DNA of 64,000 bases from Bacteroidales bacterium (GTDB lineage: Bacteria > Bacteroidota > Bacteroidia > Bacteroidales > JAIOZK01): the NCBI GenBank assembly GCA_021740625.1, contig JAIOZK010000008.1, forward strand, positions 27,627-91,626, written 5' to 3'. Shown one piece after another: positions 40,607-64,000 of the stretch; position 1 is the stretch's first letter; every line of letters begins with the position of its first letter. The notes below the pieces were generated by a model. That model was not told the DNA's origin, did not search any database, and worked only from the letters and a program-made list of their open reading frames with translations. The position numbers and the translations under genes were made by a program.

Positions 40607-41923
40607 ATGAACCAAAACATGCGCTCCTGGATACGAGAATCCATCACTTTCAAATTCATCATCATTTCCATCCTTGTTTTACTATTGCTTATCCCTACCG
40701 GGATGATACAATCCCTGATCAGAGAAAGACAACAAACAAGAAATGAAGTCATCGAAGAAGTAAGTTCAAAATGGGCTCATGACCAGTTATTGATCGGACC
40801 CATGATCAGCATTCCCTATTTCACAACTTATGTGGATGATGATAAGATCAGGAAATATAAGAAATTCGCACATTTCCTTCCGTCCGAATTAAAAATACAT
40901 GGGACAGTTAATCCACAAATCAGATATCGCAGTATATACGAGGTGATCGTTTATTCCTCGGAATTTAGTTTTTCAGGTTATTTTGATAAGCCTGATTTTT
41001 CCAAATGGAAGATCAATGAAGAAGATATTCTTTATGATGAAACCACTATTGTTTATGGACTTAGCGATATGCGGGGCATCAACAAAGTCATTAACATTGA
41101 TTTCAACGGTAGGTCCTACGAAACAGGTCCGGGTATTCCTTCAAAAGAGGTCTTCCAATCGGGGATCTCCGCAAATCTGGGAAAACTGGAAAAAGAAAAA
41201 AACGAATTCAGCTTCACAATAGATTTCAATGGAAGCCAGGAGTTGAGTTTTGTCCCAATGGGTAAAACTACAAATGTAAAGCTGAACTCCAGCTGGACGG
41301 ATCCCAGTTTTATGGGTGCCTTCCTGCCCGATAATAGAAACATTGACAAAGATGGATTTACAGCAGAATGGTTCATACTGGAGCTCAACAGAACTTATCC
41401 GCAAAAATGGCTCGGTGATGCATACAATGTTACCGATTCAGCATTCGGAGTTGAATTCCTGTTTGGTGTCGACATATATCATAAAGCCGAAAGATCAGCA
41501 AAATATGCAGTCATGTTCCTGGCCTTGACCTTTCTTATTTTTATCATGTCTGAGATCATCAATAAAAAAAGAATACATCCGATCCAATACCTGCTTATCG
41601 GGATTGCACTTTCGGTTTTTTACGTTTTGCTGATCTCCCTGGCAGAGCAAATTGGTTTTACCTGGGCATACCTGATTGCGAGTATTGCCAACATTACACT
41701 TATCACTGCCTATACTGCCAGTATATTGAATAAGAAGAAAATAACTTTTTTTGTTGCACTGGCATTGGTCATCTTATACTCATTCCTTTTTACGATATTG
41801 CAGTTACAAGATTACGCACTTTTGATGGGCAGTATCGGATTGTTCATTGTTGTGGCCATAACCATGTACCTATCGCGCAAAATAGACTGGTATGGTACAA
41901 TCGATCAGGGGGATAATCCTTAA
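40607..41923 (+). CDS. creD: Inner membrane protein CreD
   Basis: LLLLIP...LIRERQ, YRSIYEVIVY, KYAVMFLALTF, IHPIQYLLIG, SRKIDWY. Confidence 0.92.
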   Translation: MNQNMRSWIRESITFKFIIISILVLLLLIPTGMIQSLIRERQQTRNEVIEEVSSKWAHDQLLIGPMISIPYFTTYVDDDKIRKYKKFAHFLPSELKIHGTVNPQIRYRSIYEVIVYSSEFSFSGYFDKPDFSKWKINEEDILYDETTIVYGLSDMRGINKVINIDFNGRSYETGPGIPSKEVFQSGISANLGKLEKEKNEFSFTIDFNGSQELSFVPMGKTTNVKLNSSWTDPSFMGAFLPDNRNIDKDGFTAEWFILELNRTYPQKWLGDAYNVTDSAFGVEFLFGVDIYHKAERSAKYAVMFLALTFLIFIMSEIINKKRIHPIQYLLIGIALSVFYVLLISLAEQIGFTWAYLIASIANITLITAYTASILNKKKITFFVALALVILYSFLFTILQLQDYALLMGSIGLFIVVAITMYLSRKIDWYGTIDQGDNP

Positions 41924-52441: not shown

Positions 52442-53910
52442 GTTAATCCTCCTATGATCATTTGTTCGGTATAATTCGTATTGATCGTATTATCGTTTGG
52501 CCTTTGCACAAAATCATTATAATAATGCAGCAGCCATCCTTCCTTTTCCCTGTACTGATATCGGATGCTTAACTCAAGTTTTTCCGTTAAAAGCATCAGC
52601 AGGTTAAGCTCTGCAATATATTTAATTTTATCGTACACATTGTAAACCACAAATGATTGGTCCCAATATGTGTTTTCGAGTTCTCCCTGCATGTATTTGC
52701 CTTCCAGCCAGATCCTTGGGAGTATTTTTAAACTGACCGATTGAGAGAACAGGAACTTATTCTCCTGGTGATTTTCTATGATATAATAAGAAAAACTTGT
52801 TGCACCGTAAAGATTCAGATTGCCGAAAGGGTAGTAATGAACACCGGCACTAAATCCAAGCTGATCTCTTAAATTCAGCCTCGAAAAGGATGCTGCCGCT
52901 GAAACTCCCAGGCATTGAAAATTCTTGTTTGCCGAAAGCCCGATGATGTAGTCATTCAAGACTGTATCCTTTTGATTGAAAATGTACTCATTTCTGATAT
53001 AATCGAAATAATTGTAGGTTCCATTAAATTTATCGTAATATTCGATTTCCTTTTCCTCATGGGGAATATAATTCACATCAAATTTCTTATAGTTTACCCG
53101 TAGATAATGCCCGTATGCAGCAATATTCCAGTCTTTTCCCAGATAAAAATCTGCTTTGAGGTATAGCTGGATTTGCCTGATATTCGACCGGAAAGTCATT
53201 TCTTCCTGCTGTAAAGTATAGTAGTAATCACTGGTAAAGGTAGTTTCAACAATGGAATCGAGTGCAAGATCCGTATAATAGCGGTATTTGTTCTTTTTCC
53301 TTCTTTGAATATAGCTCATACCGGAGTAAAGAGAAATGTCGGGTGACAGGTTCATTTTCAAACCGGCATGTGAATAAATTGAATTCCCTGTTAGCTGGTT
53401 TTCGAGGTAAATGGTGCTGTCGGTCCACTGCTTTTGCAAATCCCCGTTGTTTTTGTCATCATTGCCAAAAAGAATTCCTCCTTCTAAATAAATTTTATCC
53501 ACAAAACCCAGGTCATCGTCAATTTGCAGTTCCTTTCTCCGGGCTTCCGGGATCTTTTGAGCAAAATTCCGTGCTTGTTTATCCCTGTTCAGGTATAGGT
53601 TGGTATAATACAGGTATGTCAGCAGAGCATTGTCGTTCTGGTTGAATTCATATGCTTTTCCAAAATGCAGTTTTGCCTTAATATAATTTTTCATGGAATA
53701 ATAGGCCACCCCCATGCGATAGCGCAGGTAATAATAATCAAAACCCTGTTTGATCCCTGCCTTCCCCAGGTCAACCAGTGAGTCCCATTTTTCTTCCTGG
53801 TATAAACGATAGGTTTCCCTGTCCAGTGTCTGAAAGTCGATCTCCTTTGCAGCCATTAGATTCATGCACAATCCTGTCATCATTAAAACCAAAAAACCAT
53901 GTTTACTCAT
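52429..53910 (-). CDS. Exported protein with N-terminal TPR and probable C-terminal beta-barrel
   Basis: Signal peptide, TPR-like repeats, aromatic beta-strand pattern ending GGLTWKM. Confidence 0.65.
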   Translation of the reverse strand: MSKHGFLVLMMTGLCMNLMAAKEIDFQTLDRETYRLYQEEKWDSLVDLGKAGIKQGFDYYYLRYRMGVAYYSMKNYIKAKLHFGKAYEFNQNDNALLTYLYYTNLYLNRDKQARNFAQKIPEARRKELQIDDDLGFVDKIYLEGGILFGNDDKNNGDLQKQWTDSTIYLENQLTGNSIYSHAGLKMNLSPDISLYSGMSYIQRRKKNKYRYYTDLALDSIVETTFTSDYYYTLQQEEMTFRSNIRQIQLYLKADFYLGKDWNIAAYGHYLRVNYKKFDVNYIPHEEKEIEYYDKFNGTYNYFDYIRNEYIFNQKDTVLNDYIIGLSANKNFQCLGVSAAASFSRLNLRDQLGFSAGVHYYPFGNLNLYGATSFSYYIIENHQENKFLFSQSVSLKILPRIWLEGKYMQGELENTYWDQSFVVYNVYDKIKYIAELNLLMLLTEKLELSIRYQYREKEGWLLHYYNDFVQRPNDNTINTNYTEQMIIGGLTWKM

Positions 53911-56120
53911 AGAATTCCGTCTTTCGAGATATTGATCGCCTCTGTTTTTTGTTTCCCCTGTCGAATGACAAATTTTTTCAATTCATTCTCCCCGAAATAC
54001 ATTACAAAATTTAGAGCCCTCACCACCTTCCCTCCTATTTTTAATTCAGCAGTTGAATGCAGTTCAATCGCACTGCCAGAAATGTCTTCTGAACTCTTGT
54101 GATATAACAGGCTGTATTTTGGCCTGATGAAAATATAAAAAGGTGCAAGAAAATCCTGCAGTATCTTCCATCCTCCCAGCTTTATCCCGCTTACCGGGAT
54201 CTCATCCTCAACTTTCAATCCCCTGTAAAAACCATTCACAATCTTGAATGCACCCAGGTAGAAGTAATAAAGCAAGGTATTCTTCTTCCCCATGTAGTTG
54301 ACGAAGGAATGAATATCCCCTTCATTTTTCAGGTAAGCCTTTGCCCCGCTTGTTTTGCATAAAATGTAAGTATTGTTCAGGATATCCGTTTGTACTTCCC
54401 ATTCGAAAATTTGCTCACGACCGGATTCATCCCTGACTTCGAACTTCATCTTTTGTCCGGCAACAAAATGCAGGGCCTTTTTCAGGGTATCATTGGATCC
54501 TATGTTCGAGATTAACTGGTCTTTTTCAGGTAGGCGGAATGTTTTCAATTCATATTTTCCGGAGTGATTCAGGATATAATGTGACACAGGATAATCAACG
54601 GTTTTGGAACCCACATGTGGGGTTTCCTGCAACTGAAAATGTATATGAGGTTCCGGAGAGCGGCCCGAGTTGCCGCAATAAGCCAGCACATCGCCTTTTT
54701 TCACAAACTCCCCCCTGGTCACCTTGAATGAATCTGCTTTGATATGGCTGATCTGACTGAATACTTTTTCACGATGTTTGATCACAATGGAATTCCCCCA
54801 GTTCCTCTCCAGGTTCATATCCCCAATTTTATTGTCTTCAATGCCGTCCACGATTTCCTGCACATAGCCGTCGGCAGGGGCTACGATGGGTTTGTTATAG
54901 GCATAATAATCTTCCGGGGTATTTCCCCTGCCTTTGAATTTCTGACCTTCATCATCGAAAATCTCAAAATCCCAGGCATGTTTCCAGTCGGATTTGTGAG
55001 TCATTTCACCATCATGGGCCTGTGTCACTTTCCATTCTCCCCAGAAAGGCAATCCAATGGACACATGATCCAGGTCGTGAAAACGTTTGTGAAAATTTCT
55101 TTGCACGTACAGGTTCTTCTCCGGTGAAAACTGCTGCACCGCAACCAGTTCGGGTGATTTGAAGTATCTTTCCCTGAACTTCATCACATACAGGAAAAGC
55201 AATACGATGATATTGAAAGGCAGAGAAAAGATCGAAAGCTGGAAAATGGAGAACAATGCACTGGTGCTTGTGATGGTGATCGACAAAAGGGGTGTAAGCA
55301 GGATCACCCAGAGTACTGATAAACGTGATGGAACAACAAAGAAGCCACCCACGGCAATGGCCGAAAGGATGTAATTGAAACCGATGTAACTATAACTCAA
55401 CTCACTGATATCGGCGCCAATGAAATGATAGAAATAATAGGCTGCATAAAACCCGATGATCGAAAGCAGGAAAGCGATTCGGGAATATATCAGCAGACCC
55501 AGAGCAATCAGCAAGCCGGCAAACAAATGATACTGAAAAAAGATGGCTCCCAGTGAACGAAAATAGATCTTGATGCTTTCATGCAGGGGCAGGTTGTTGA
55601 ACCATTCGTAAATATTTACCATGGACAATCCGCCCAGCATGTACATTTCGTTCAGGTTATAAATACCCCTTTCACTGATCTCCAGCGCCGAGAATTCCCG
55701 TGCTGCCAGGGTCACCATCCAGATGCCGAACAAAAAAGAAATGCTCAGGTAGGGCAGCCCGTATTTGCCAATGATCCCTTCCAGTGAAACTGTGATGAAC
55801 AAAGTCAGAATGGCCGTAAAAATCAGGAATACATAAAACTCCACGGAAGGCTGGAAGAAAACACCAACCCCCAGTCCAACCAGCAAAGAATTGAATCCGT
55901 AATAGCCGGATCTGATATTGAATCGGTTAAATCCCAGCACAAAAGCCATGGCATTTGAAATGATCACGGCCAGCATCCCGCTGATACCGGCATAAAGATC
56001 GAAAAAGGAAACAATGATCAATGCCAGCGCAAAAATTTTATTGTTCGAGAAGAATACCTGTGTATAACTGTTTAACAGGCTTTCGATAAAGGCAGATATT
56101 TTGATCTTGCTGCTGTTCAT
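53907..56120 (-). CDS. Urea transporter (UT) domain fused to peptidase M23 domain
   Basis: N-terminal ~320 aa TM with QVFF, GYYGFNS.LVG, GAIFFQ, LPF motifs; M23 H...D (AWDFE) and GNSGRSPEPHIHFQ. Confidence 0.85.
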   Translation of the reverse strand: MNSSKIKISAFIESLLNSYTQVFFSNNKIFALALIIVSFFDLYAGISGMLAVIISNAMAFVLGFNRFNIRSGYYGFNSLLVGLGVGVFFQPSVEFYVFLIFTAILTLFITVSLEGIIGKYGLPYLSISFLFGIWMVTLAAREFSALEISERGIYNLNEMYMLGGLSMVNIYEWFNNLPLHESIKIYFRSLGAIFFQYHLFAGLLIALGLLIYSRIAFLLSIIGFYAAYYFYHFIGADISELSYSYIGFNYILSAIAVGGFFVVPSRLSVLWVILLTPLLSITITSTSALFSIFQLSIFSLPFNIIVLLFLYVMKFRERYFKSPELVAVQQFSPEKNLYVQRNFHKRFHDLDHVSIGLPFWGEWKVTQAHDGEMTHKSDWKHAWDFEIFDDEGQKFKGRGNTPEDYYAYNKPIVAPADGYVQEIVDGIEDNKIGDMNLERNWGNSIVIKHREKVFSQISHIKADSFKVTRGEFVKKGDVLAYCGNSGRSPEPHIHFQLQETPHVGSKTVDYPVSHYILNHSGKYELKTFRLPEKDQLISNIGSNDTLKKALHFVAGQKMKFEVRDESGREQIFEWEVQTDILNNTYILCKTSGAKAYLKNEGDIHSFVNYMGKKNTLLYYFYLGAFKIVNGFYRGLKVEDEIPVSGIKLGGWKILQDFLAPFYIFIRPKYSLLYHKSSEDISGSAIELHSTAELKIGGKVVRALNFVMYFGENELKKFVIRQGKQKTEAINISKDGIL

Positions 56121-57068
56121 TTAAAAACCGGCTTGTTCTTCAAATTTAAACAATTCCGAAAGCCTGAATTCCCTGAGGTGGTTTGCCAGTGCATCACCGC
56201 AAACAAATCCTGACTCCAGGATAAATCCGTTTAACAGATCATTGGGTATATCCTCGAAATAGAAATTCAGCAGCCGGACATTCGGTGCTGCATTTTTCCA
56301 GAGTTCATCAGCATCCTTTTCCTCCTCTGTTTTCAAAACTTCAAACAATGCAGGAGGGAGGTCTTTTTCATTGATCAGTTTTCGGCTGTCGGACAAAACA
56401 TAGGCGGCTTTCCCCGAATCATGAAACAGGCGTGCATAAAGATGCGTTCCTGTTTTGTTGACAAAGTGATCCGTAAAAATACCATCGCTGCCAAAGAGGG
56501 CCAGGTCCATTTCATCTGCAAAGCGGGCAACGGATGCATCGCTAATCACTCTGACCATAAACCCCATCTCCGCCAGCTTTTCAGCCTGTATTTTACCTTC
56601 TTCTGCCGGATAGGAAATCGTCTGGTAGATCCGTGGAAAAACAGACTTTTCCGACAATACCTCCAGAGTTTTCAAAACAACTGCAGTGTTGCTGTGCAAG
56701 AGTATGGTTTTCCGGGAAAGATCTTCTTTTTCCAGTAAGTGTTCTGCAATCTGTTGTTCAATTCCCTGCCATTGATTTAGATATTCTGCCAGGAAAGAGA
56801 GCAGTTCTTCTTTTGCAGCATCGCCCTTGCGCATCAATGCTTTGTCTTCAATCCGCAAAAAGAAGCTGTTGATAAAATGGAAAAGCACGATCATACCGGA
56901 ATGGGCTGAAAACAAACGATTCAACTGATCGACCAGGCGGCCGGTTTGCAGGGATGAGGACTTTCTCAAATGTTCCTGCAGTGCCTGAAGCGTTTTTTCC
57001 AGGATCCCTGTCGAACCGCTCCGGTTATCGTGCATGATTGCTTTCAGTTTTTCTTCCCAGTTATTCAT
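56121..57068 (-). CDS. eIF2B alpha/beta/delta-like (MtnA/R15P isomerase family) protein
   Basis: DNRSGS, LLHSNT, YPAEEG...AE.L, GSDGI....VNKTGT, FEDIP..L..GFI.E.G. Confidence 0.8.
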   Translation of the reverse strand: MNNWEEKLKAIMHDNRSGSTGILEKTLQALQEHLRKSSSLQTGRLVDQLNRLFSAHSGMIVLFHFINSFFLRIEDKALMRKGDAAKEELLSFLAEYLNQWQGIEQQIAEHLLEKEDLSRKTILLHSNTAVVLKTLEVLSEKSVFPRIYQTISYPAEEGKIQAEKLAEMGFMVRVISDASVARFADEMDLALFGSDGIFTDHFVNKTGTHLYARLFHDSGKAAYVLSDSRKLINEKDLPPALFEVLKTEEEKDADELWKNAAPNVRLLNFYFEDIPNDLLNGFILESGFVCGDALANHLREFRLSELFKFEEQAGF

Positions 57069-57072
57069 ATTG

Positions 57073-58431
57073 TTACAATTCGAATTTTTTCAAATGTTCC
57101 GGCACCTTTTCAAAATGGTTGATGCTTTCCATGCTTTCTTTTTCGCGGATCAGGTGGTGCTTGCCTTTCTCATCGATCATCACGATGTTGGGCCGCAATG
57201 TAATGAACTGCATCCATTGTGTCATATTGTAGGCACCCACGGAATGCACAACCACCTGCTCTCCTTTGTTCAGCAAGGGAAGGTTGGCGTTCTCACGGAT
57301 CACATCGATGTTCATGCACAAAGGACCGTAAAGCACCGTATCTTCGGTATACTGGGTAAAAGGCTGTGCTGGCGAAATTTTATGATCGTACCAGAAAGAG
57401 GTAAACAGCAGGTTTACACCAATATCGAGTATGGTGGTCCTTTTGCCATCTGCCAGCCGTTTATTGGAGATCACCGAGCCGATCAGGAAGCCGGCATCAT
57501 CGATTAGGGCACGGCCTGTTTCGAGTATCAGCAGGGGTAATTGATCCGGCTTGAAGTCGCTGTTGATCAAAGCACTGGTGATGGCCTCGGCAAAATCGTC
57601 GAAAGTGGGATTGGTATCCGATCCGGGCAGGTAAGCGCCTTTCAGGGTGTTTTTGGAAGAAAAACCGCCGCCCATGTCAATGTATTTTATTTCGTGATTG
57701 TATTTTTTCTGTATGCCCAGGGCAAGGTCAGCCATCTTATATGCCGCCACAGAATAGGCGTTGGCTGAAAGCATAAAGGTACCGATATGTGTATGCAAAC
57801 CGACCAGCTCCAGTTTCTCCGAACGCACAATCTTGTTGAGGGCATCCCAGGCCTGCCCGTTCTCGTAGTTGAAACCAAAACGATCCCACATGGGATATAT
57901 ACCGGTATCCATGTTCACACGAATGGCGACTTTGGGTTTTTTATTCATTTTGCCGGCCAGTTCGATGATGGTATACAACTCATCCAGGTGATCGATGTGG
58001 ATGAGGGAATCGTTTTCAATGGCCATTTCCAGGTCATCCACCGTTTTATCGGGACCGTTGAAAATGATCTTTTTTCCATCCACGCCGTTCAGCAACGCTT
58101 TCTGGTATTCAAATCCCGAAACCACCTCGGCCCAGGATCCTTCCTGGTGAAACACATTGCAAACCGCGCTCAGGTAATTGGTTTTATAAGACCATCCGAA
58201 TTGCACTTTGGGATAGCGCGTGCTGAATGCCTTTTTGGCTTCCCGGTAGGTTTTTCGTATGGTTTTCTCCGAGATCACAAAAAGTGGTGAACCATATTCC
58301 TTTACCAGCTCCTTCACCGCCACACCATCAATATGAGTCTTGGGTGTATATTCCGTTTTTGTACCGAATTTATTCGGCATATTGGTTTCCAGCTTCTTGA
58401 TCACCGGACGTTCGTATCTTTGTTTTTGCAT
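57073..58431 (-). CDS. Fold-type III PLP-dependent decarboxylase (LysA/BtrK-like)
   Basis: SYKTN PLP lysine, IFNGP, HTHIG, DMGGGF, ETGRAL, GPLCMNID, GAY. Confidence 0.88.
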   Translation of the reverse strand: MQKQRYERPVIKKLETNMPNKFGTKTEYTPKTHIDGVAVKELVKEYGSPLFVISEKTIRKTYREAKKAFSTRYPKVQFGWSYKTNYLSAVCNVFHQEGSWAEVVSGFEYQKALLNGVDGKKIIFNGPDKTVDDLEMAIENDSLIHIDHLDELYTIIELAGKMNKKPKVAIRVNMDTGIYPMWDRFGFNYENGQAWDALNKIVRSEKLELVGLHTHIGTFMLSANAYSVAAYKMADLALGIQKKYNHEIKYIDMGGGFSSKNTLKGAYLPGSDTNPTFDDFAEAITSALINSDFKPDQLPLLILETGRALIDDAGFLIGSVISNKRLADGKRTTILDIGVNLLFTSFWYDHKISPAQPFTQYTEDTVLYGPLCMNIDVIRENANLPLLNKGEQVVVHSVGAYNMTQWMQFITLRPNIVMIDEKGKHHLIREKESMESINHFEKVPEHLKKFEL

Positions 58432-58468
58432 GACTATTTTATGTGTTACTGATTATCTTATTTTTTCT

Positions 58469-58546
58469 ATTGTTCGATTGTTCCATTGTTTCATTTTTAT
58501 CCGATCTTGCTTTTAACAATAGAGCAATCGAACAATGGAACAATTG
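58469..58546. repeat. Inverted tandem 8-mer repeat inside the operon
   Basis: attgttcg-attgttcc-attgtttc vs aacaatag-agcaatcg-aacaatgg-aacaattg. Confidence 0.75.
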
Positions 58547-58549
58547 AAT

Positions 58550-59602
58550 TTACAATTCCCCATAAGTTGATATTTGTTCAAATTCTTTGATATCCACGAT
58601 CATATCGTATGCATACCGGATAAACATTTTACCGATATCGTAGGTTTTGTATGGCTCGACTTTCTCGCCCATGGCCAGGTTCACAAGGGCTTCTGGAATG
58701 TTTTGCCCGACACCTACTGCCAGATAGACCCATGCAGGAATTCTTGGATTGATCTCCAGGATATAGAAATCATTCTTTTTGTCCTTCATCAGTTCAAGTT
58801 CAAAACCGCCCCGCCATTTGGTCTGGCTGATAAACTTATCCGTGAGTTCCAGCATCTTTTTATCTGCAATGGAAATGCCGCCCCATGCTTTTCCTTTATC
58901 CGTGATGTATTGCTTTCGCATGGGTACGGCAGAAATGGTGTTCCCTTTTCCATCCCCCAGTCCTGTCACATTGTATTCTGTACCATGTACAAACTCCTGT
59001 ATGATGATGGGCAACCCCCATTTGGCTGAAATCTTGTTAAAAGCACTTTTGGCCTGCTCCGAATTGTACACAATGCTGGCATCATAATACTTTCCTTTTA
59101 CCACCAGCGGGTATTCAATACCTTCCGGCAAACGATAAAGATCATTCACTGTATAAATGGGTTCACTTCGGGGCACATGCAAATCGTACTTTTTGCCGAA
59201 TTCCGGGAGGTTGTGTTTGTGTCTCTCTTCAAATTGTTTCATGGTCGGTAAAAAAGTATGCATGCCGATCTCCTTCAATCTTTTCTCAAGTTTGATAAAG
59301 GAATACAATTCCGCATCAAAATTGGGAATGATCATATCGATCTTTTCGATGGAACTGATGTGTTCAAGTCTTTTGAAAAGATTCTCAATGCCGGTGGTAG
59401 GATAAGGCACATGATAGGTTTTATCCACCAGGTCGTGCATGTAGATGCCCGGCTCAAGCGATTCGTATGCCAGGCCGATGATCCGCACATCAAAAGAAGC
59501 CGCCTCCCGTAAAGCCCTGATCACCGCTACACCCGGTCCCGGACTGTCGATCGCATTCAATCCGCTGACAGCAATGTTATACTTCTTTTTCATTGTTTTC
59601 AT
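58550..59602 (-). CDS. ATP-grasp ligase (carboxylate-amine ligase family)
   Basis: YPLVVKG, IIQEFV.G.EY, FELE....FYILEINPR. Confidence 0.9.
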   Translation of the reverse strand: MKTMKKKYNIAVSGLNAIDSPGPGVAVIRALREAASFDVRIIGLAYESLEPGIYMHDLVDKTYHVPYPTTGIENLFKRLEHISSIEKIDMIIPNFDAELYSFIKLEKRLKEIGMHTFLPTMKQFEERHKHNLPEFGKKYDLHVPRSEPIYTVNDLYRLPEGIEYPLVVKGKYYDASIVYNSEQAKSAFNKISAKWGLPIIIQEFVHGTEYNVTGLGDGKGNTISAVPMRKQYITDKGKAWGGISIADKKMLELTDKFISQTKWRGGFELELMKDKKNDFYILEINPRIPAWVYLAVGVGQNIPEALVNLAMGEKVEPYKTYDIGKMFIRYAYDMIVDIKEFEQISTYGEL

Positions 59603-59840
59603 CTATTATTTGATATTGCTTCAGCATACTGATGAAATCATTGAAATCCTTTTCCAGGGTTTCGGCATCCACCTGGTATTTTTCAAGCAATTCCTTTTCA
59701 ATCTCATCAAAACTTTTGTTTTCCTTCAGCATATTGAAGATCTCGGCTGCAACCGGATTCACGGAATAGGATTCACCTGTAATGGGGTTGAACACAAATC
59801 CCGATTCGCTGACGGCCACATTGGATTTAATTTTTGTCAT
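59577..59840 (-). CDS. PqqD-family protein (RiPP recognition element)
   Basis: 88 aa; FVFNPITGESYSVNPVAAEIFNML...LLEKYQVD...EKDF..FI..L winged-helix pattern. Confidence 0.85.
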   Translation of the reverse strand: MTKIKSNVAVSESGFVFNPITGESYSVNPVAAEIFNMLKENKSFDEIEKELLEKYQVDAETLEKDFNDFISMLKQYQIIDENNEKEV

Positions 59841-59974
59841 TGAATAAAATGTTAAAGATTCATTTTGCAAGGATAAGATGAATTCAGCAAAAAGCTGTTA
59901 TAAAATTTTCAGAAAGATGTATAAGATTTCCGGCTTTTCAACTCTTGATGTAAAATCAAAAGAGCAGCTATTAC

Positions 59975-60133
59975 AAAATGAACTACCCCGCCGCATAGCA
60001 AAGAGGTATCATCTTAAATGTGCCACAGAGCGGCGGGGAACCTGACCGTCAGGCAAGTTAAACCCATGAGTTCACTCAACTATCGCTCGGGATCCCTGCC
60101 TCGCCGTCAGGCATGGAGTTCGGCTAAATGATT
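59975..60133. repeat. Dispersed hairpin element, copy 2 (longer)
   Basis: Shares aaaatgaactaccccgccgca with 30278; ccccgccgc (59986-59994) pairs with gcggcgggg (60030-60038). Confidence 0.65.
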
Positions 60134-60328
60134 TTGATTACAAAATCATGGTCTCACTGATTTAACTGGCAGGCATGTTTTTTCTAATCAGCAACCCATA
60201 TCTCTAAATAGAGTCTGTTCATAAACTTATTGTACTTCCCACATTCCTCTATAAAAGCAATTTGTTGCATAAAAAATCAAAAATCTTTAACTTTACGGAA
60301 CCTTTCTTTGGGGGGATAGATAAATTTT

Positions 60329-61384
60329 ATGAAAAACCAAAACAAAAAAATCCAGGAATTGATAACTGCATCCCGCTCAGAAATTGCGGAAGAGATTGTA
60401 AACCTGCAGTATGCAAAGAATCCTGAGGCGTGGGAAAAATACGGGCCTGCCGGCAAAAAACTCAGCATCCGGGATGCCGGATATCATTTACCTTTCTTAA
60501 CAGAAGCTATTGTTTCTGAAGATGATTCTATTTTCAGGGAATATGTGACCTGGGTAAAAAAGCTGTTCACAGGATTAAACCTGCCACAGGATACCATGAA
60601 AGTTACCCTGGAATGTACCCGGGAGGTCCTTCAGCATTATCTTTCGGAGGAAATGGCAAAAACTACAAATCACTTTATTGAATCAGGTCTTGAGCAATTA
60701 AAAAAGGAAGTAACTGATGACAAACCTTTTATCAATAAAGCGGATTACCTGGGGGAGGCTGCATATCAATATATTAATGCTTTGTTAAATGGTGACAGGA
60801 TGCAGGCCGGAGAGATCATCATGCAAACTGTTGAATCAGGGAAACCGGTCAGGGATATTTACATCCACATTTTCCAGAAATCTCAATATGAGGTTGGCCG
60901 ATTATGGCTGAATAACAAAATAACAGTAGCCAAGGAACATTTTTGCTCGGCGGCTACCCAACAGATCATGTCGCAGTTGTACCCCTACATTTTTACAACC
61001 GACAGGATCGGGAAAACTTTTGTGGCTGCTTGTATTGGAGGCGAATTGCATGAGATTGGGATTCGTATGGTAGCCGATTTTTTTGAGATGGAAGGATGGG
61101 ATACCTATTATCTGGGAGCCAATTCACCAACCAGCAGCATTGTCCAGGCCATAGAAGATAAAAATGCAAATCTTCTGGGTCTTTCCGTTGCCATGCCCTA
61201 TCACAGGAATTTACTCAGGGAGGCCATTGATGAAATCAGACAGGAAACCAACAATAAGATCAAGATCATGGTTGGTGGAAATGCCATGAATACCCATGAT
61301 GATGCATGGAGGAATTTTCGGTCGGATGCCTATGCGCCTGATGCCATCAAAGCCATTGAAATTGCAAAACAATTGCTGAATTAA
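60329..61384 (+). CDS. Cobalamin-binding sensor: helical N-terminal domain + CarH-type B12-binding module, no HTH
   Basis: W-x9-EH (WLNNKITVAKEH), ELHEIG, GLSV and VGG motifs. Confidence 0.85.
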   Translation: MKNQNKKIQELITASRSEIAEEIVNLQYAKNPEAWEKYGPAGKKLSIRDAGYHLPFLTEAIVSEDDSIFREYVTWVKKLFTGLNLPQDTMKVTLECTREVLQHYLSEEMAKTTNHFIESGLEQLKKEVTDDKPFINKADYLGEAAYQYINALLNGDRMQAGEIIMQTVESGKPVRDIYIHIFQKSQYEVGRLWLNNKITVAKEHFCSAATQQIMSQLYPYIFTTDRIGKTFVAACIGGELHEIGIRMVADFFEMEGWDTYYLGANSPTSSIVQAIEDKNANLLGLSVAMPYHRNLLREAIDEIRQETNNKIKIMVGGNAMNTHDDAWRNFRSDAYAPDAIKAIEIAKQLLN

Positions 61385-61389
61385 TCAAT

Positions 61390-62577
61390 ATGAAGGATCA
61401 TGCAATAAACGGACTGGCAGTTTTATGCGAAGAGAGCGGGAAGATCGAAAAGGTTCTCCGGGATGATTTTGGTGCACTGCAAAATGCAGGCGGAAAACAA
61501 TTCTCAAATATCATCGACCCCGGCTCGCGAGAGAAATCACTGAATTTCATCCTGGAAATTAAAAAGAAGAACATTGCATTTGACTATCAATTGAACATGT
61601 TGATCGATCAGAAGCTGAAAACACTTTATTTCATCGGGATACACCTTGATGAAAAAATTATGCTCATCGGAGCCGATAATCACAAGGAAGCCCTCGAATT
61701 CACCAATCATTTGCAACAAATATCCAACGAGCAAGCCAACCAGATCAGGGATTTACTAAAACAGCAGGCCATTAGGTCAAACAACAATGATAAGGAAACA
61801 GCACACCTGTTTGACGAGTTGACCCGCCTGAACAACGAATTGGTAAACCTTCAACGTGAGCTCTCGAAAAAAAACATTGAGCTTGAAAAGCTGAATGATC
61901 TGAAAAACCAGTTCATGGGGATGGCAGCACATGACATGCGAAATCCCCTGGGTATTATTCAAAACTACACTGAATTTCTGATTGAAGAGATTGCTGACGA
62001 TCTTGAAGAAGATCACCGCATGTTTTTAAATACCATCTATGAATCGACTGATTTCATGTTAAAGCTGATTGAAGATTTGCTCGACTATTCCAAAGTCGAA
62101 TCAGGGAAAATACAGTTGAATCCTTCCAGCTTTGATCTTGTTGAACTAATGCTGGATAATATCAAACTGAATCAAAGTCTCGCCAATAAGAAAGATATCA
62201 GGATTCATTTCGAGCATCCCGGCAAAATACCAATATATGCCGATCAGCATAAACTTGTTCAGGTGTTGAACAATCTGCTGAGCAATGCCATCAAATTTTC
62301 TGAAAACGGATCGAACATCAACGTTAAACTGCTCCTTGAAGGTAATAAAATTACACTCCGGGTAAAGGACGAAGGTATCGGGATAAAGGAGGAAGACCTT
62401 GAAAAGTTGTTCGTTCCTTTTTCCAAAATCTCCAGTACAGGCACCGGAGGAGAAAAAGGAACAGGATTGGGCTTATCCATTGTTAAAAAAATCATTGAAA
62501 GTCATAATGGAAGCATACAGGTGAAAAGTAAATATGGCGAGGGAACAGAGTTTTCAATCCATATGCCAACAAAGTAA
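61390..62577 (+). CDS. Cytoplasmic sensor histidine kinase
   Basis: No TM; coiled coil, AAHDMRNPL, NNLLSNAIKFS, DEGIGI, GTGLGLSI. Confidence 0.95.
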   Translation: MKDHAINGLAVLCEESGKIEKVLRDDFGALQNAGGKQFSNIIDPGSREKSLNFILEIKKKNIAFDYQLNMLIDQKLKTLYFIGIHLDEKIMLIGADNHKEALEFTNHLQQISNEQANQIRDLLKQQAIRSNNNDKETAHLFDELTRLNNELVNLQRELSKKNIELEKLNDLKNQFMGMAAHDMRNPLGIIQNYTEFLIEEIADDLEEDHRMFLNTIYESTDFMLKLIEDLLDYSKVESGKIQLNPSSFDLVELMLDNIKLNQSLANKKDIRIHFEHPGKIPIYADQHKLVQVLNNLLSNAIKFSENGSNINVKLLLEGNKITLRVKDEGIGIKEEDLEKLFVPFSKISSTGTGGEKGTGLGLSIVKKIIESHNGSIQVKSKYGEGTEFSIHMPTK

Positions 62578-62585
62578 ATTGAGTA

Positions 62586-63764
62586 TTGAAAAAAGATTTT
62601 AAAATATTGATTGTTGATGACGATCCTGATATTATTCAGGTCATTGAGCGTTCTTTGCAATCGGAAAATTACAAAACAGCATCCTGCCGGGATCTGAATT
62701 CAGCAATGGAGCTGATCAGGGAAATAAACCCCAACTTGCTTATTCTTGATGTAATACTACCAGATGGAAACGGAATTGAAGCGGCTGCAAGTATCCTGGA
62801 AAATCAGCCCAACCTGGATATGTATATCTTTTTGATCTCAGGCAATAGAAAGTCCGGGGATGATCTGGAAAAGGCTTATCAATCGGGTGTCCTGGATTAT
62901 GTACTCAAACCCATCAACCTGAAAGAACTAAGCAGAAAGATCAAGCTGATTTATCGCATAACAAAACTTAAAGAAAAACAAAAGCTTGCTGAAGGGAAAT
63001 ATATGCACCTGATCAAGCATTCGAATGATCTGATTTTCTCAATTGATAGCAAACAAAAGATATTGCTGCTCAATACCAGTTTTGAAAATGTAACGGGTCA
63101 TACAACCTGGTCATTGAAAAACAAAACTTTTGAAAAGATAGTATGCGCGGAAGATCAGTTAGAATGGAATGAATATTTGAAAGCCATCTTAACAAACCAG
63201 GCCAGCAATGCTCATGAAATTCGAATTCTTGACAAGGATCAGCAAATAATACCCCTGAGAGTTTTTCTGTCAAAAATAAAGCATGATAATGAAGAGATTG
63301 GTTTTCTTGGTATTGCAAAAGATCTGAGTGAGCAAAAACTGCTCAACCTGGAAAAAGGTTCCGGGGAAAATTCGCGCAAGCGGGAAATGAGGTCCTGGTC
63401 TGTTTTATCCGACAGCCAGACCTCAAAAACGTCGGATATCTACGAAGGAGCTTCTCCATTTAAAACAGATCCGGAGATATACGAACGACTTTTCAAAGAC
63501 TACCAGCAGATTCTTGATAAAAGCGTTGAACAAAGGATATACAAGGTCCATTTCAACGGAAAAGAGAAGCTGATAAAAATGGCAAGCGAATTTGGTTTTC
63601 TAAAAGCCTCCCCAAGGGAGGTGATCAAGTTAAACAGCATGGTCCTTAAGGAAAAAATGAAAACAAAACACCCCAGGAAGTTAATCGTATACCATGAAGA
63701 AGCCAGGCTGATCATGCTGGAATTGATGGGTTACCTGGCATCCTATTACAGAAACAGAATTTAA
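62586..63764 (+). CDS. Response regulator REC-PAS with KaiA-like C-terminal helical domain
   Basis: ILIVDDD, LDVILPDG, KP; PAS segment; C-terminus RLIMLELMGYLASYYRNRI; TTG start. Confidence 0.8.
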   Translation: MKKDFKILIVDDDPDIIQVIERSLQSENYKTASCRDLNSAMELIREINPNLLILDVILPDGNGIEAAASILENQPNLDMYIFLISGNRKSGDDLEKAYQSGVLDYVLKPINLKELSRKIKLIYRITKLKEKQKLAEGKYMHLIKHSNDLIFSIDSKQKILLLNTSFENVTGHTTWSLKNKTFEKIVCAEDQLEWNEYLKAILTNQASNAHEIRILDKDQQIIPLRVFLSKIKHDNEEIGFLGIAKDLSEQKLLNLEKGSGENSRKREMRSWSVLSDSQTSKTSDIYEGASPFKTDPEIYERLFKDYQQILDKSVEQRIYKVHFNGKEKLIKMASEFGFLKASPREVIKLNSMVLKEKMKTKHPRKLIVYHEEARLIMLELMGYLASYYRNRI

Positions 63765-63775
63765 ATGGAATAAAC

Positions 63776-64000
63776 ATGAATAAGTACACATTCAAATTGT
63801 TTTTAACCGGTAAATCCGCCCGATCGGAGGGAGCGGTTAAAACCATTAAACAGATTTTAAAAGATGAATCCGGTTTGGAATTCAAACTGGATATCATCGA
63901 TGTACTTGAAAGTCCTGATATTGCTGAACAGAATAAGGTACTGGCAACACCAACACTCATCAAATTGTTGCCTCCTCCGGTCAAACGTCTGGTTGGTGAT
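63776..64000 (+). CDS. kaiB: Circadian clock protein KaiB (3' truncated; not in ORF track)
   Basis: Manual translation MNKYTFKLFLTGKSARSEGAVKTIKQILKDESGLEFKLDIIDVLESPDIAEQNKVLATPTLIKLLPPPVKRLVGD; IDVLxxP, LATPTLIK and PxxRLxGD are KaiB signatures. Confidence 0.93.
   Translation, partial: MNKYTFKLFLTGKSARSEGAVKTIKQILKDESGLEFKLDIIDVLESPDIAEQNKVLATPTLIKLLPPPVKRLVGD

What the first reader, a model, noticed from the sequence alone, without database searches (positions are those of the whole stretch)
60329..61384. HTH-less CarH-type B12 photoreceptor domain fused to a phycobiliprotein/globin-like N-terminus
Seen: exact W-x9-EH (60905-60940) and ExHxxG (61043-61060) motifs, with no MerR helix-turn-helix. 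The N-terminal stretch LSIRDAGYHLPFLTEAIVSEDDSIFREY...LFTGLNLP resembles, from memory, the allophycocyanin segment [21 protein letters not shown], with Ser at the bilin-attachment Cys position. Known: W-x9-EH marks AdoCbl-binding, light-responsive CarH proteins. Inferred: a two-module sensor that signals by protein contact with the adjacent kinase, possibly with a second non-covalent tetrapyrrole pocket. Light sensing would be surprising in an apparent sediment/anaerobe gene context, so B12-form or redox sensing is an alternative.
Basis: partly seen in the sequence, partly recalled or inferred. Interest (0 to 1): 0.78.

Follow-up and report, generated by a model that had tools for sequence, protein, structure and literature searches.

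The report
Photocobilin B12-bilin sensor beside KaiBC
This gene encodes a member of the already published photoglobin/photocobilin family, a vitamin-B12 light-sensor module fused to a phycobiliprotein-like globin; here it sits with its own partner kinase directly upstream of KaiB-KaiC clock genes in a non-photosynthetic Bacteroidota bacterium.

Summary
ORF 60329-61384 (351 aa) carries W193-x9-E203-H204 and E239-x-H241-x-x-G244, has no MerR HTH, and has an N-terminal domain that passes Pfam's Phycobilisome threshold. An AlphaFold model of that domain superposes on allophycocyanin (TM 0.80-0.84, rmsd 1.9 A).

The architecture is not new. It is the photoglobin + B12-binding fusion predicted by Schneider et al. 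2021. Zhang et al. 2024 characterised the opposite domain order as "photocobilins" (PDB 8J2W/X/Y). The residues that hold biliverdin in SasPcob (Asp270, Trp296) align with D49 and W75. All four published light-responsive B12 signatures are present.

In about 70 of 80 related loci from six or more phyla, the next gene is a soluble histidine kinase with a private N-terminal domain.

Three points go beyond the papers I read:
- In this genome the pair heads a six-gene operon containing REC-PAS, KaiB and KaiC, an arrangement that recurs patchily in Bacteroidales, Cytophagales and Anaerolineae.
- ChuW/HutW-like anaerobic haem-cleaving genes lie next to the sensor gene in 10 related loci.
- SxRD-type and CxQD-type pockets associate with different haem-cleaving enzymes.

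Verdict: a new member of a known kind, of moderate interest.

The parts
60329..61384 (+). Photocobilin-type sensor gene (351 aa): N-terminal photoglobin plus C-terminal CarH-type B12-binding module, with no output domain
   Evidence: ORF and Pfam. (AF2 full length: pLDDT 92.6, pTM 0.85). (2991 homologues, many carrying PF00502+PF02607+PF02310).
60329..60703 (+). Photoglobin domain (res 1-125), a phycobiliprotein-type globin lacking the N-terminal X/Y helix pair
   Evidence: The Pfam PF00502 match starts at profile position 33. A domain profile hits allophycocyanins at E 3.9e-8. The AF2 domain model has pLDDT 92.1. The Foldseek top 50 are all phycobiliproteins or smURFP, with TMq 0.80-0.84 and rmsd 1.9 A.
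60464..60475 (+). S46-I-R48-D49, the counterpart of the phycobiliprotein CxRD chromophore motif. D49 aligns with the biliverdin-binding Asp270 of SasPcob.
   Evidence: Alignments. S46, R48 and D49 are invariant in 54 close homologues. D49 is kept in 63 of 65 wider relatives.
60551..60553 (+). W75, aligning with SasPcob Trp296, which packs on the bilin D ring
   Evidence: alignment, with the numbering offset derived from His108 in PMC10979010. W75 is kept in all 65 relatives.
60752..60991 (+). Four-helix-bundle cap (B12-binding_2, about res 142-221)
60905..60940 (+). W193-x9-E203-H204, the motif that contacts the adenosyl group in CarH and the photocobilins
   Evidence: Kept in all 65 relatives.
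61016..61384 (+). Rossmann-type B12-binding domain (about res 230-351)
61043..61060 (+). E239-x-H241-x-x-G244. H241 is the predicted lower axial ligand of cobalt (base-off/His-on).
   Evidence: Kept in all 65 relatives as [E/D]xHxxG.
61390..62577 (+). Partner soluble histidine kinase (395 aa). It starts 5 nt after the sensor's stop codon and has H-box His181 and N, G1 and G2 boxes.
61390..61884 (+). Private N-terminal input domain of the kinase (HK_N, res 1-165): an alpha/beta module followed by a coiled coil, with no Pfam or PDB homologue. It is the proposed docking site for the sensor.
   Evidence: A homologous domain lies immediately downstream of the sensor gene in about 70 of 80 loci. Alignment. 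No family or PDB match.
62586..63764 (+). REC-PAS protein (392 aa, acceptor Asp55) with a conserved C-terminal helical domain of unknown family. It is the likely phospho-acceptor.
   Evidence: The same domain lies upstream of kaiB in L011, L022, L031, L072 and L080.
63776..64000 (+). kaiB, cut by the window end (full length 89 aa). kaiC (509 aa) and a REC-PAS-HK-REC hybrid kinase follow just beyond the window.
59871..60328 (.). 458-bp intergenic region upstream of the operon, with a divergent neighbour. It is the presumed promoter region and holds no Rfam element.

Best explanation
The gene encodes a cytoplasmic photocobilin, a dual-tetrapyrrole sensor. Its C-terminal CarH-type module is predicted to bind adenosylcobalamin base-off/His-on through H241, with the adenosyl group held by W193, E203 and H204. 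Its N-terminal phycobiliprotein-like globin is predicted to hold a haem-derived linear tetrapyrrole non-covalently, using D49, R48 and W75, with Ser in place of the attachment Cys.

The protein has no output domain of its own. By analogy with CarH and SasPcob, light breaks the Co-C bond and changes the protein's conformation and oligomeric state. That change is proposed to be read by the private N-terminal domain of the histidine kinase encoded 5 nt downstream.

In this genome the kinase probably phosphorylates the next gene product, a REC-PAS protein. That would connect a light signal to the KaiB-KaiC timer and the hybrid kinase encoded in the same operon.

Shown here: domain composition, fold, conservation of every ligand-contacting motif, presence of an adenosyltransferase, and gene linkage across phyla.

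Inferred, not shown: cofactor loading, photochemistry, sensor-kinase contact, phosphotransfer partner and the effect on KaiC.
For: Domains and motifs.

Closest solved relatives are the photocobilins 8J2X/8J2W/8J2Y. The B12 module matches at E 1e-21, and a second stretch aligns the globin pocket, with D49 = Asp270 and W75 = Trp296.

Folds: the full model matches CarH-type CBDs and photocobilins. The N-terminal domain alone matches allophycocyanins at TM 0.80-0.84.

Conservation: W193, E203, H204, [E/D]239, H241 and G244 are kept in 65 of 65 relatives. H53, Y72 and W75 are kept in nearly all.

Family description, pocket residues and both domain orders are published (PMC8717448; PMC10979010). The light signature GxxW/EH/GxxH/GxxxP comes from PMC11796333.

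Kinase partnership: a kinase with a homologous HK_N domain lies directly downstream in about 70 of 80 loci from Bacteroidota, Thermodesulfobacteriota, Chloroflexota, Acidobacteriota, Bacillota and a Methanotrichaceae archaeon.

A linear tetrapyrrole ligand is supported by haem-cleaving genes next to the sensor gene in 25 of 80 loci: ChuW/HutW-like 10, IsdG/HmuQ-like ABM 8, haem oxygenase 7.

AdoCbl supply: a PduO-type adenosyltransferase is present in this genome.

Kai linkage: the six genes are separated by gaps of 3-11 nt. The same order is found in L011, L022, L031, L072 and L080, and the linkage needs at least 5 gains or losses on the sensor tree.
Against: No member with the globin at the N-terminus has been tested at the bench in any paper I found.

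This genome (95% complete) has no canonical haem oxygenase and no ChuW-like gene. It has only a weak HmuQ-like ABM protein, at 52.6 bits against a cut-off of 130. The source of a bilin here is therefore uncertain.

The family is common in strict anaerobes from dark habitats such as digesters and deep sediments, where light is an odd signal.

Kinase contact is inferred from gene order only, and HK_N has no known fold relative.

The Kai genes accompany the sensor in only about 10% of loci. The closest syntenic relative, at 65% identity, has the sensor-kinase pair without the Kai block. Kai is therefore not the general output.
Confidence: 0.8

Rival explanations
1. The protein senses cobalamin availability or cobalamin form, or redox state, rather than light. 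It would report whether AdoCbl (or another corrinoid form) is present, or its oxidation state, to the partner kinase in the dark. The globin would act only as a structural cap.
For: Relatives are abundant in strict anaerobes and dark habitats: Desulfomonile, Syntrophaceae, Anaerolineae from anaerobic reactors, and Methanotrichaceae. This genome has no canonical haem oxygenase and no ChuW-like gene. AbPcob, a characterised photocobilin, binds biliverdin only weakly (PMC10979010).
Against: Every residue that defines light-responsive AdoCbl domains is invariant. The bilin-pocket Asp and Trp are equally invariant, which is hard to explain for a mere cap. Haem-cleaving enzymes are recurrent neighbours. 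Repeated linkage to a KaiBC timer points to a daily cue. The genome has terminal oxidases, so the organism does meet oxic and probably lit zones.
Confidence: 0.12
2. The globin domain binds haem or another cyclic tetrapyrrole, or no ligand at all. On this reading the protein is a gas or redox globin-coupled B12 protein rather than a dual-chromophore photoreceptor.
For: It has a globin fold. H53 is nearly invariant. No obvious bilin source is encoded in this genome.
Against: The domain is specifically phycobiliprotein-like, not haem-globin-like: all top-50 structural matches are phycobiliproteins or smURFP. The xRD motif and the Trp that contact bilin are kept. The homologous SasPcob domain was crystallised with biliverdin (PMC10979010). 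Relatives carry haem-cleaving, not haem-inserting, neighbours.
Confidence: 0.08
3. It is a corrinoid methyl-carrier protein of the MtbC/MtgC/MtaC type, as several database annotations call its homologues.
For: JGI labels such as 'methanogenic corrinoid protein MtbC1' appear on homologues. There are NCBIfam hits to MtgC and MtbC.
Against: Those hits score 55-59 bits against cut-offs of 350-370. No methyltransferase genes are adjacent. The W-x9-EH adenosyl pocket and the fused photoglobin are features of photoreceptors. The conserved partner is a histidine kinase.
Confidence: 0.02

Closest known systems
Photocobilins SasPcob and AbDPcob/AbPcob (PDB 8J2W, 8J2X, 8J2Y; Zhang et al. 2024, Nat Commun, PMC10979010)
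   Same: It has a CarH-type AdoCbl domain with W-x-EH and E/DxH motifs plus a phycobiliprotein-like bilin-binding globin without the attachment Cys. The biliverdin-contacting Asp270 and Trp296 correspond to D49 and W75. The stand-alone form is proposed to act through protein-protein contacts.
   Different: The domain order is reversed, with the globin first. That paper lists such proteins as a predicted group but did not characterise one. The pocket motif is SxRD rather than TLDD. The B12 module is only about 24-25% identical to the solved photocobilins in the structural alignment. The partner here is a histidine kinase, not a diguanylate cyclase or STAS/SpoIIE proteins.
Photoglobin family (Schneider et al. 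2021, CSBJ, PMC8717448)
   Same: The architecture matches: photoglobin + B12-binding_2 + B12-binding, 'either before or after'. The predicted pocket positions 46/49/80 match S46, D49 and L79/F80 here. Ser or Thr at the Cys position was noted as common. Association with two-component systems was noted.
   Different: That work is purely computational. The text I searched does not mention Bacteroidota, Kai genes or radical-SAM ChuW-like neighbours.
CarH/LitR B12-dependent photoreceptor repressors (e.g. Thermus thermophilus CarH, PDB 5C8D)
   Same: It has the same sensor module and the same adenosyl-contacting W-x9-EH and lower-ligand His.
   Different: There is no MerR DNA-binding domain. An extra globin domain is present, and the output is presumably through a kinase rather than DNA binding.
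Allophycocyanin and other phycobiliproteins; smURFP
   Same: The globin fold matches (TM 0.80-0.84). It scores above threshold on Pfam PF00502. The xRD of the CxRD chromophore motif is kept.
   Different: Ser replaces the Cys. The N-terminal X/Y helices used for alpha-beta assembly are absent, since the Pfam match starts at profile position 33. The host is not photosynthetic, and the domain is fused to a B12 domain.
KaiA3-KaiB3-KaiC3 systems (Köbler et al. 2024, Nat Commun, PMC11372060)
   Same: A REC-containing protein is encoded directly upstream of kaiB-kaiC (context only).
   Different: Here the REC protein carries a PAS domain. Its C-terminal domain gave no KaiA signal in three tests. That paper does not describe a B12 sensor or kinase upstream, nor Bacteroidota.

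Membership tests
Photoglobin / photocobilin (photoglobin + CarH-type B12 module) | Phycobiliprotein-related globin domain lacking the N-terminal X/Y helices | tested here: met
   Pfam PF00502 scores 32.7 bits (GA 22.2), matching profile positions 33-149. A domain profile hits allophycocyanin at E 3.9e-8. Foldseek gives TM 0.80-0.84 and rmsd 1.9 A to allophycocyanins.
Photoglobin / photocobilin (photoglobin + CarH-type B12 module) | Fusion or adjacency to B12-binding_2 (PF02607) and B12-binding (PF02310) | tested here: met
   Both domains are in the same polypeptide, at res 147-217 and 231-327.
Photoglobin / photocobilin (photoglobin + CarH-type B12 module) | Conserved pocket Asp (photoglobin D49 / SasPcob Asp270) and pocket Trp (SasPcob Trp296) | tested here: met
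   D49 and W75 align with these residues. They are invariant or nearly invariant in relatives.
Photoglobin / photocobilin (photoglobin + CarH-type B12 module) | Light-responsive B12 signature: W-x9-EH, E/DxHxxG, and GxxW/EH/GxxH/GxxxP | tested here: met
   G190xxW193, E203H204, G238xxH241 and G263xxxP267 are all present.
Photoglobin / photocobilin (photoglobin + CarH-type B12 module) | Binds AdoCbl and biliverdin, and changes spectrum and oligomeric state in light | not testable with these tools
   This needs purified protein. A PduO-type adenosyltransferase is present, but no clear bilin-making enzyme is encoded in this genome.
Photoglobin / photocobilin (photoglobin + CarH-type B12 module) | Same domain order as the experimentally characterised members (B12 module first, globin last) | tested here: not met
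   The globin is N-terminal. This order is nevertheless included in the published family definitions.
CarH/LitR transcription factors | N-terminal MerR-type helix-turn-helix DNA-binding domain | tested here: not met
   No HTH family appears in Pfam at E <= 10. The NCBIfam CarH model matches only the B12 part, at 42.9 bits against a cut-off of 400.
Light-harvesting phycobiliproteins | Cys for covalent bilin attachment in the CxRD motif | tested here: not met
   Ser46 occupies the Cys column.
Light-harvesting phycobiliproteins | N-terminal X/Y helix pair for alpha-beta monomer assembly; equivalog-level similarity to ApcA/ApcB | tested here: not met
   The Pfam match begins at profile position 33. 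The ApcB and ApcA NCBIfam models score 21 and 18 bits against cut-offs of 228 and 270.
Corrinoid methyl-carrier proteins (MtbC/MtgC/MtaC) | Equivalog-level score and an adjacent cognate methyltransferase | tested here: not met
   The scores are 55-59 bits against cut-offs of 350-370. The neighbours are a kinase and Kai genes.
KaiA / KaiA3 (for the neighbouring REC-PAS protein, context only) | C-terminal KaiA-type four-helix domain | tested here: inconclusive
   There is no KaiA hit in Pfam at E <= 10. A six-sequence profile finds no KaiA chain in PDB at E <= 10. PF07688 searched over the whole genome finds nothing at this locus.

The most novel reading that the evidence does not exclude
The photocobilin-kinase pair is the light-input arm of a KaiB-KaiC timer in a non-photosynthetic Bacteroidota bacterium. 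On this reading a B12/bilin photoreceptor controls a dedicated kinase. The kinase phosphorylates the REC-PAS protein encoded just upstream of kaiB, and this sets or gates KaiC cycling. That would be the first natural photoreceptor-to-Kai input pathway outside phototrophs.

In the anaerobic relatives there is a corollary. The ChuW/HutW-like radical-SAM gene next to the sensor may supply an oxygen-independent linear tetrapyrrole (anaerobilin-type) as the globin's chromophore.
Probability: 0.3. Interest if true: 0.75.

Novelty: new member of a known kind. Interest (0 to 1): 0.4.

Why it matters
The protein itself adds nothing categorically new. It is a clear member of the photoglobin/photocobilin family, and earlier reports of this scan have already found the same sensor-kinase pairing in several other genomes.

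Its value lies in what surrounds it.
- The globin-first, kinase-partnered form is by far the most widespread version (one search lists 2991 homologues; one search found relatives encoded in 546 stretches of species-representative genomes). In the papers I found it has not been tested at the bench. This would be a natural B12-gated two-component system.
- Here, and in scattered Bacteroidales, Cytophagales and Anaerolineae, the pair is built into a KaiBC operon. That offers a concrete and testable route by which non-phototrophic sediment bacteria could set a Kai timer by light.
- Three different haem-cleaving enzyme types associate with the sensor, including an oxygen-independent ChuW-like one. 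This suggests how anaerobes might obtain a bilin-type chromophore.

Compact green-plus-red responsive kinase switches would also be useful optogenetic parts.

Tried and rejected
- **Corrinoid methyl-carrier annotation.** Rejected: NCBIfam scores are far below the cut-offs and no methyltransferase neighbours are present.
- **Cobalamin riboswitch or any Rfam element in the window.** None was found at gathering thresholds.
- **KaiA-like nature of the REC-PAS protein's C-terminus.** No signal came from Pfam, from a profile against PDB, or from PF07688 searched over the whole genome. A word-indexed homologue search of that region found only two proteins. The question is left open.
- **Identity of the kinase's N-terminal domain.** It has no Pfam or PDB relative.
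- **Canonical haem oxygenase and ChuW in the own genome.** Both are absent. The best ChuW-model hit is HemW. L029's radical-SAM gene is a true HemN lying 6 kb away, so it was removed from the ChuW-like count.
- **Promoter and terminator scan of the operon.** The counts do not exceed the shuffled expectation, and Bacteroidota promoters are not covered by the scan. It gives no evidence either way beyond the 3-11 nt gene spacing.
- **Full-length fold search.** It could not show the globin match because the B12 module dominated the hits. A separate model of the domain alone resolved this.
Full report
**1. The observation**

The ORF at 60329-61384 on the + strand is open and encodes 351 residues. 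W193-x9-E203-H204 is at 60905-60940, and E239-L-H241-E-I-G244 is at 61043-61060.

Pfam finds three domains, all above their gathering scores:
- Phycobilisome PF00502 at residues 7-118 (32.7 bits against a gathering score of 22.2)
- B12-binding_2 at residues 147-217
- B12-binding at residues 231-327

No helix-turn-helix family appears, even at E <= 10.

**2. The N-terminal domain**

I tested it in three ways.
- **Single sequence.** It already hits allophycocyanin chains in PDB at E about 1e-3.
- **Profile.** A profile of 26 N-terminal domains taken from related loci hits 77 PDB sequences at E < 0.01. All of them are phycobiliproteins or photocobilins. The best is allophycocyanin beta at E 3.9e-8. 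Ser46 lies in the column of the chromophore-attachment Cys, and R48 and D49 lie in the RD columns of the CxRD motif.
- **Structure.** An AlphaFold2 model of residues 1-135 has pLDDT 92.1. Its 50 best Foldseek matches in PDB are all phycobiliproteins or the allophycocyanin-derived smURFP. Query-normalised TM-scores are 0.80-0.84 and rmsd is about 1.9 A over about 128 columns.

The fold claim therefore holds. The Pfam match starts at profile position 33, so the two N-terminal helices that phycobiliproteins use to assemble are missing. This is as described for photoglobins.

**3. The B12 module**

The closest solved sequences are the photocobilins 8J2X, 8J2W and 8J2Y (E 1e-21 to 3e-19). Next come the Chloracidobacterium MerR-family B12 domain 8JBS, corrinoid proteins and CarH.

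The full-length AlphaFold2 model is confident (pLDDT 92.6, pTM 0.85). It superposes on CarH-type cobalamin-binding domains and photocobilins with rmsd 1.9-2.8 A over about 205-213 columns.

The four-part signature published for light-responsive cobalamin domains is GxxW, EH, GxxH and GxxxP (PMC11796333). All four parts are present: G190xxW193, E203H204, G238xxH241 and G263xxxP267.

Scores against corrinoid methyl-carrier models are far below their cut-offs. The database labels 'MtbC1' on homologues are therefore misnomers.

**4. What the protein is**

The architecture is published.
- Schneider et al. 2021 (PMC8717448) defined the photoglobin family. They reported that it is most often fused to B12-binding_2 and B12-binding 'either before or after' the globin. 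They placed the predicted pocket at positions 46, 49 and 80, noted that Ser or Thr often replaces the Cys, and noted association with two-component systems.
- Zhang et al. 2024 (PMC10979010) characterised two members with the B12 module first. They named them photocobilins, solved the structures 8J2W/X/Y, and showed non-covalent biliverdin held by Asp270 and stacked on Trp296. They also listed a predicted group with the B12 domain at the C-terminus.

In the HMMER alignment to SasPcob, the query's D49 and W75 fall on Asp270 and Trp296. I derived the numbering offset from the paper's His108.

The window's protein is thus a photocobilin of the globin-first group. It works like CarH's sensor module but is not a CarH family member, because the MerR domain is absent.

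**5. Conservation in relatives**

A search of the 5.8-billion-protein collection found 2991 homologues. The closest are from Bacteroidales and Prolixibacteraceae, and many carry all three Pfam domains.

Of these, 546 encode a relative, and 80 loci were fetched. They come from Bacteroidota, Thermodesulfobacteriota, Chloroflexota, Acidobacteriota, Bacillota and a Methanotrichaceae archaeon.

In 65 full-length proteins from these loci:
- W193, E203, H204, [E/D]239, H241 and G244 are kept in all 65.
- H53, Y72 and W75 are kept in nearly all.
- D49 is kept in 63.

The pocket motif comes in two forms. SxRD occurs in 45 proteins, including this one. CxQD or CxED occurs in 11.

**6. The partner kinase**

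The next gene starts 5 nt after the sensor's stop codon. It encodes a soluble 395-aa histidine kinase with an intact H-box (His181) and N, G1 and G2 boxes. Its first 165 residues match no Pfam family and no PDB sequence.

A tblastn search with that N-terminal segment finds a homologous domain immediately downstream of the sensor gene in about 70 of the 80 loci, across all the phyla (alignment). Five look-ups in the contig collection gave the same order.

In one Cytophagales locus (L087) the domain stands alone as a 178-aa protein with no kinase core, between the sensor gene and kaiC.

This co-inheritance is the evidence that the sensor signals by contact with this domain. It is indirect evidence. 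Earlier reports of this scan reached the same conclusion for other genomes.

**7. The chromophore question**

Clustering all neighbours within 6 kb of the sensor gene shows three kinds of haem-cleaving enzyme genes next to it.

| Enzyme type | Loci | Where | Evidence |
|---|---|---|---|
| ChuW/HutW-like radical-SAM protein | 10 | Mostly directly upstream on the same strand; Prolixibacteraceae, Tenuifilaceae, other Bacteroidales, one Desulfobacteraceae | Best NCBIfam model TIGR04107 at 241-292 bits, about 80-130 bits above the next-best model (HemW or STM4012), but below the cut-off of 400 |
| IsdG/HmuQ-like ABM protein | 8 | About 23 nt upstream | |
| Canonical haem oxygenase PF01126 | 7 | Desulfomonile-type loci, divergently transcribed | |

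The ABM type appears only with the Cys-type pocket. The ChuW-like and HO types appear only with the Ser-type pocket. This pattern is confounded by phylogeny.

These neighbours support a haem-derived linear tetrapyrrole as the ligand. The photoglobin paper mentions ABM and haem-oxygenase neighbours but not radical-SAM ones. I found no paper linking anaerobilin to photoreceptors of this kind.

The window's own genome is 95% complete. It has no PF01126 gene and no ChuW-like gene; its best hit to the ChuW model is HemW. It has one HmuQ-like ABM protein, which scores below the cut-off.

It does have a PduO-type adenosyltransferase, cytochrome bd and two haem-copper-oxidase family genes. AdoCbl supply and oxygen-dependent haem cleavage are therefore both plausible here. 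The bilin source remains uncertain.

**8. The operon and KaiBC**

The window ends inside kaiB. Reading on in the genome gives this gene order, with gaps of 3-11 nt:
1. sensor
2. kinase
3. REC-PAS protein with a conserved C-terminal domain
4. KaiB (89 aa)
5. KaiC (509 aa, two KaiC domains)
6. REC-PAS-HK-REC hybrid kinase
7. a ferritin-like gene

The same order, sensor-kinase-REC/PAS-KaiB-KaiC-kinase, occurs in other Bacteroidales (L011, L022, L031) and in Anaerolineae (L072, L080). Variants occur in L027, L042, L085 and L087.

On a maximum-likelihood tree of the sensor proteins, the Kai linkage needs at least five gains or losses. The association is therefore patchy but recurrent across phyla.

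The closest syntenic relative (65% identity) has the sensor-kinase pair at the same chromosomal site without the Kai block. Kai is therefore one of several outputs, not the general one.

No paper in the searchable library connects KaiC with B12-binding photoreceptors, and neither family paper mentions Kai.

Another first-stage note proposes that the REC-PAS protein's C-terminus is KaiA-like, as in KaiA3 (PMC11372060). Three sequence tests gave no KaiA signal.

**9. Mechanism, rivals and verdict**

The most likely mechanism has these steps.
1. AdoCbl binds base-off/His-on at H241, with the adenosyl group under W193, E203 and H204.
2. A bilin sits non-covalently in the globin, close to the corrin. 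This widens the action spectrum, as in SasPcob.
3. Light cleaves the Co-C bond and changes the sensor's conformation and oligomeric state.
4. The change is read by the kinase's private N-terminal domain.
5. In this genome the kinase passes phosphate to the REC-PAS protein next to KaiBC.

Domain identity, fold, motif conservation and gene linkage are shown. All the biochemical steps are inferred by homology to CarH and SasPcob.

The main rival is sensing of B12 form or redox state in the dark. It draws on the family's abundance in strict anaerobes and on the missing bilin enzyme here. It does not explain the invariant adenosyl pocket, the bilin pocket, the haem-cleaving neighbours or the Kai linkage.

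The finding is a new member of a known kind. Moderate interest remains for the untested kinase partnership, the Kai operon context and the ChuW-like lead.

**10. Limits**

- Counts from the 80 loci are of related sequences and are not independent events.
- The literature library is incomplete, so 'not reported' means not found in the papers that could be searched.

Noticed in passing
Related loci L017, L018, L019, L021, L024, L025, L031, L032, L036, L053 (e.g. L017:8484-9776): A radical-SAM gene lies next to the photocobilin gene in 10 of 80 loci. In 9 it is directly upstream on the same strand, and in L031 it is divergent. Its best NCBIfam model is the anaerobic haem-degrading ChuW/HutW (241-292 bits, below the cut-off of 400, but about 80-130 bits above the next-best model, HemW or STM4012). 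It may be an oxygen-independent source of a linear tetrapyrrole chromophore. I did not find this in the family papers I read.
   Followed up: partly
65 related sensor proteins; window 60464-60475: The pocket motif has two forms, which associate with different neighbouring haem-cleaving enzymes. SxRD goes with ChuW-like or canonical haem oxygenase. CxQD/CxED goes only with IsdG/HmuQ-like ABM proteins (7 of 11). The pattern is confounded by phylogeny.
   Followed up: partly
window 63351-63764 (C-terminal ~138 aa of the REC-PAS protein): A conserved helical domain with invariant '..EE....L.LMG.L...YRN' lies directly upstream of kaiB in Bacteroidales and Anaerolineae loci. It matches no Pfam family, and three sequence tests gave no KaiA signal. 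The fold was not tested.
   Followed up: partly
window 61390-61884; L087:11061-11597: The kinase's private N-terminal domain has a nearly invariant Cys (C13, 'LLCD'). In one Cytophagales locus the domain occurs as a stand-alone 178-aa protein between the sensor gene and kaiC, without any kinase core.
   Followed up: no
L008 (GCA_015657915.1) compared with window 61390 onward and L007: A relative whose sensor is 65% identical shares the flanking genes: UT-M23, IF-2B-like, decarboxylase, ATP-grasp and PqqD upstream, and AraC, PorZ and RecO downstream. It lacks the five-gene block REC-PAS/KaiB/KaiC/hybrid kinase/ferritin. This is a clean insertion or deletion next to the sensor-kinase pair.
   Followed up: partly
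Own genome C6, about 40890-41225 (outside the window): A 111-aa ABM protein whose best NCBIfam model is the haem-degrading HmuQ (52.6 bits against a cut-off of 130). It is the only candidate bilin-forming enzyme found in this genome.
   Followed up: partly
L007:10632-11123 (just beyond the window end): A ferritin/rubrerythrin-like gene follows the hybrid kinase at the end of the Kai operon. It may be an oxidative-stress output.
   Followed up: no
window 53907-59870, minus strand: A divergent upstream operon encodes PqqD-like RRE, ATP-grasp, Orn/DAP decarboxylase, an IF-2B-like protein and a urea-transporter-M23 fusion. It is conserved next to the sensor gene in the syntenic relative L008. It is the subject of other first-stage notes.
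   Followed up: no
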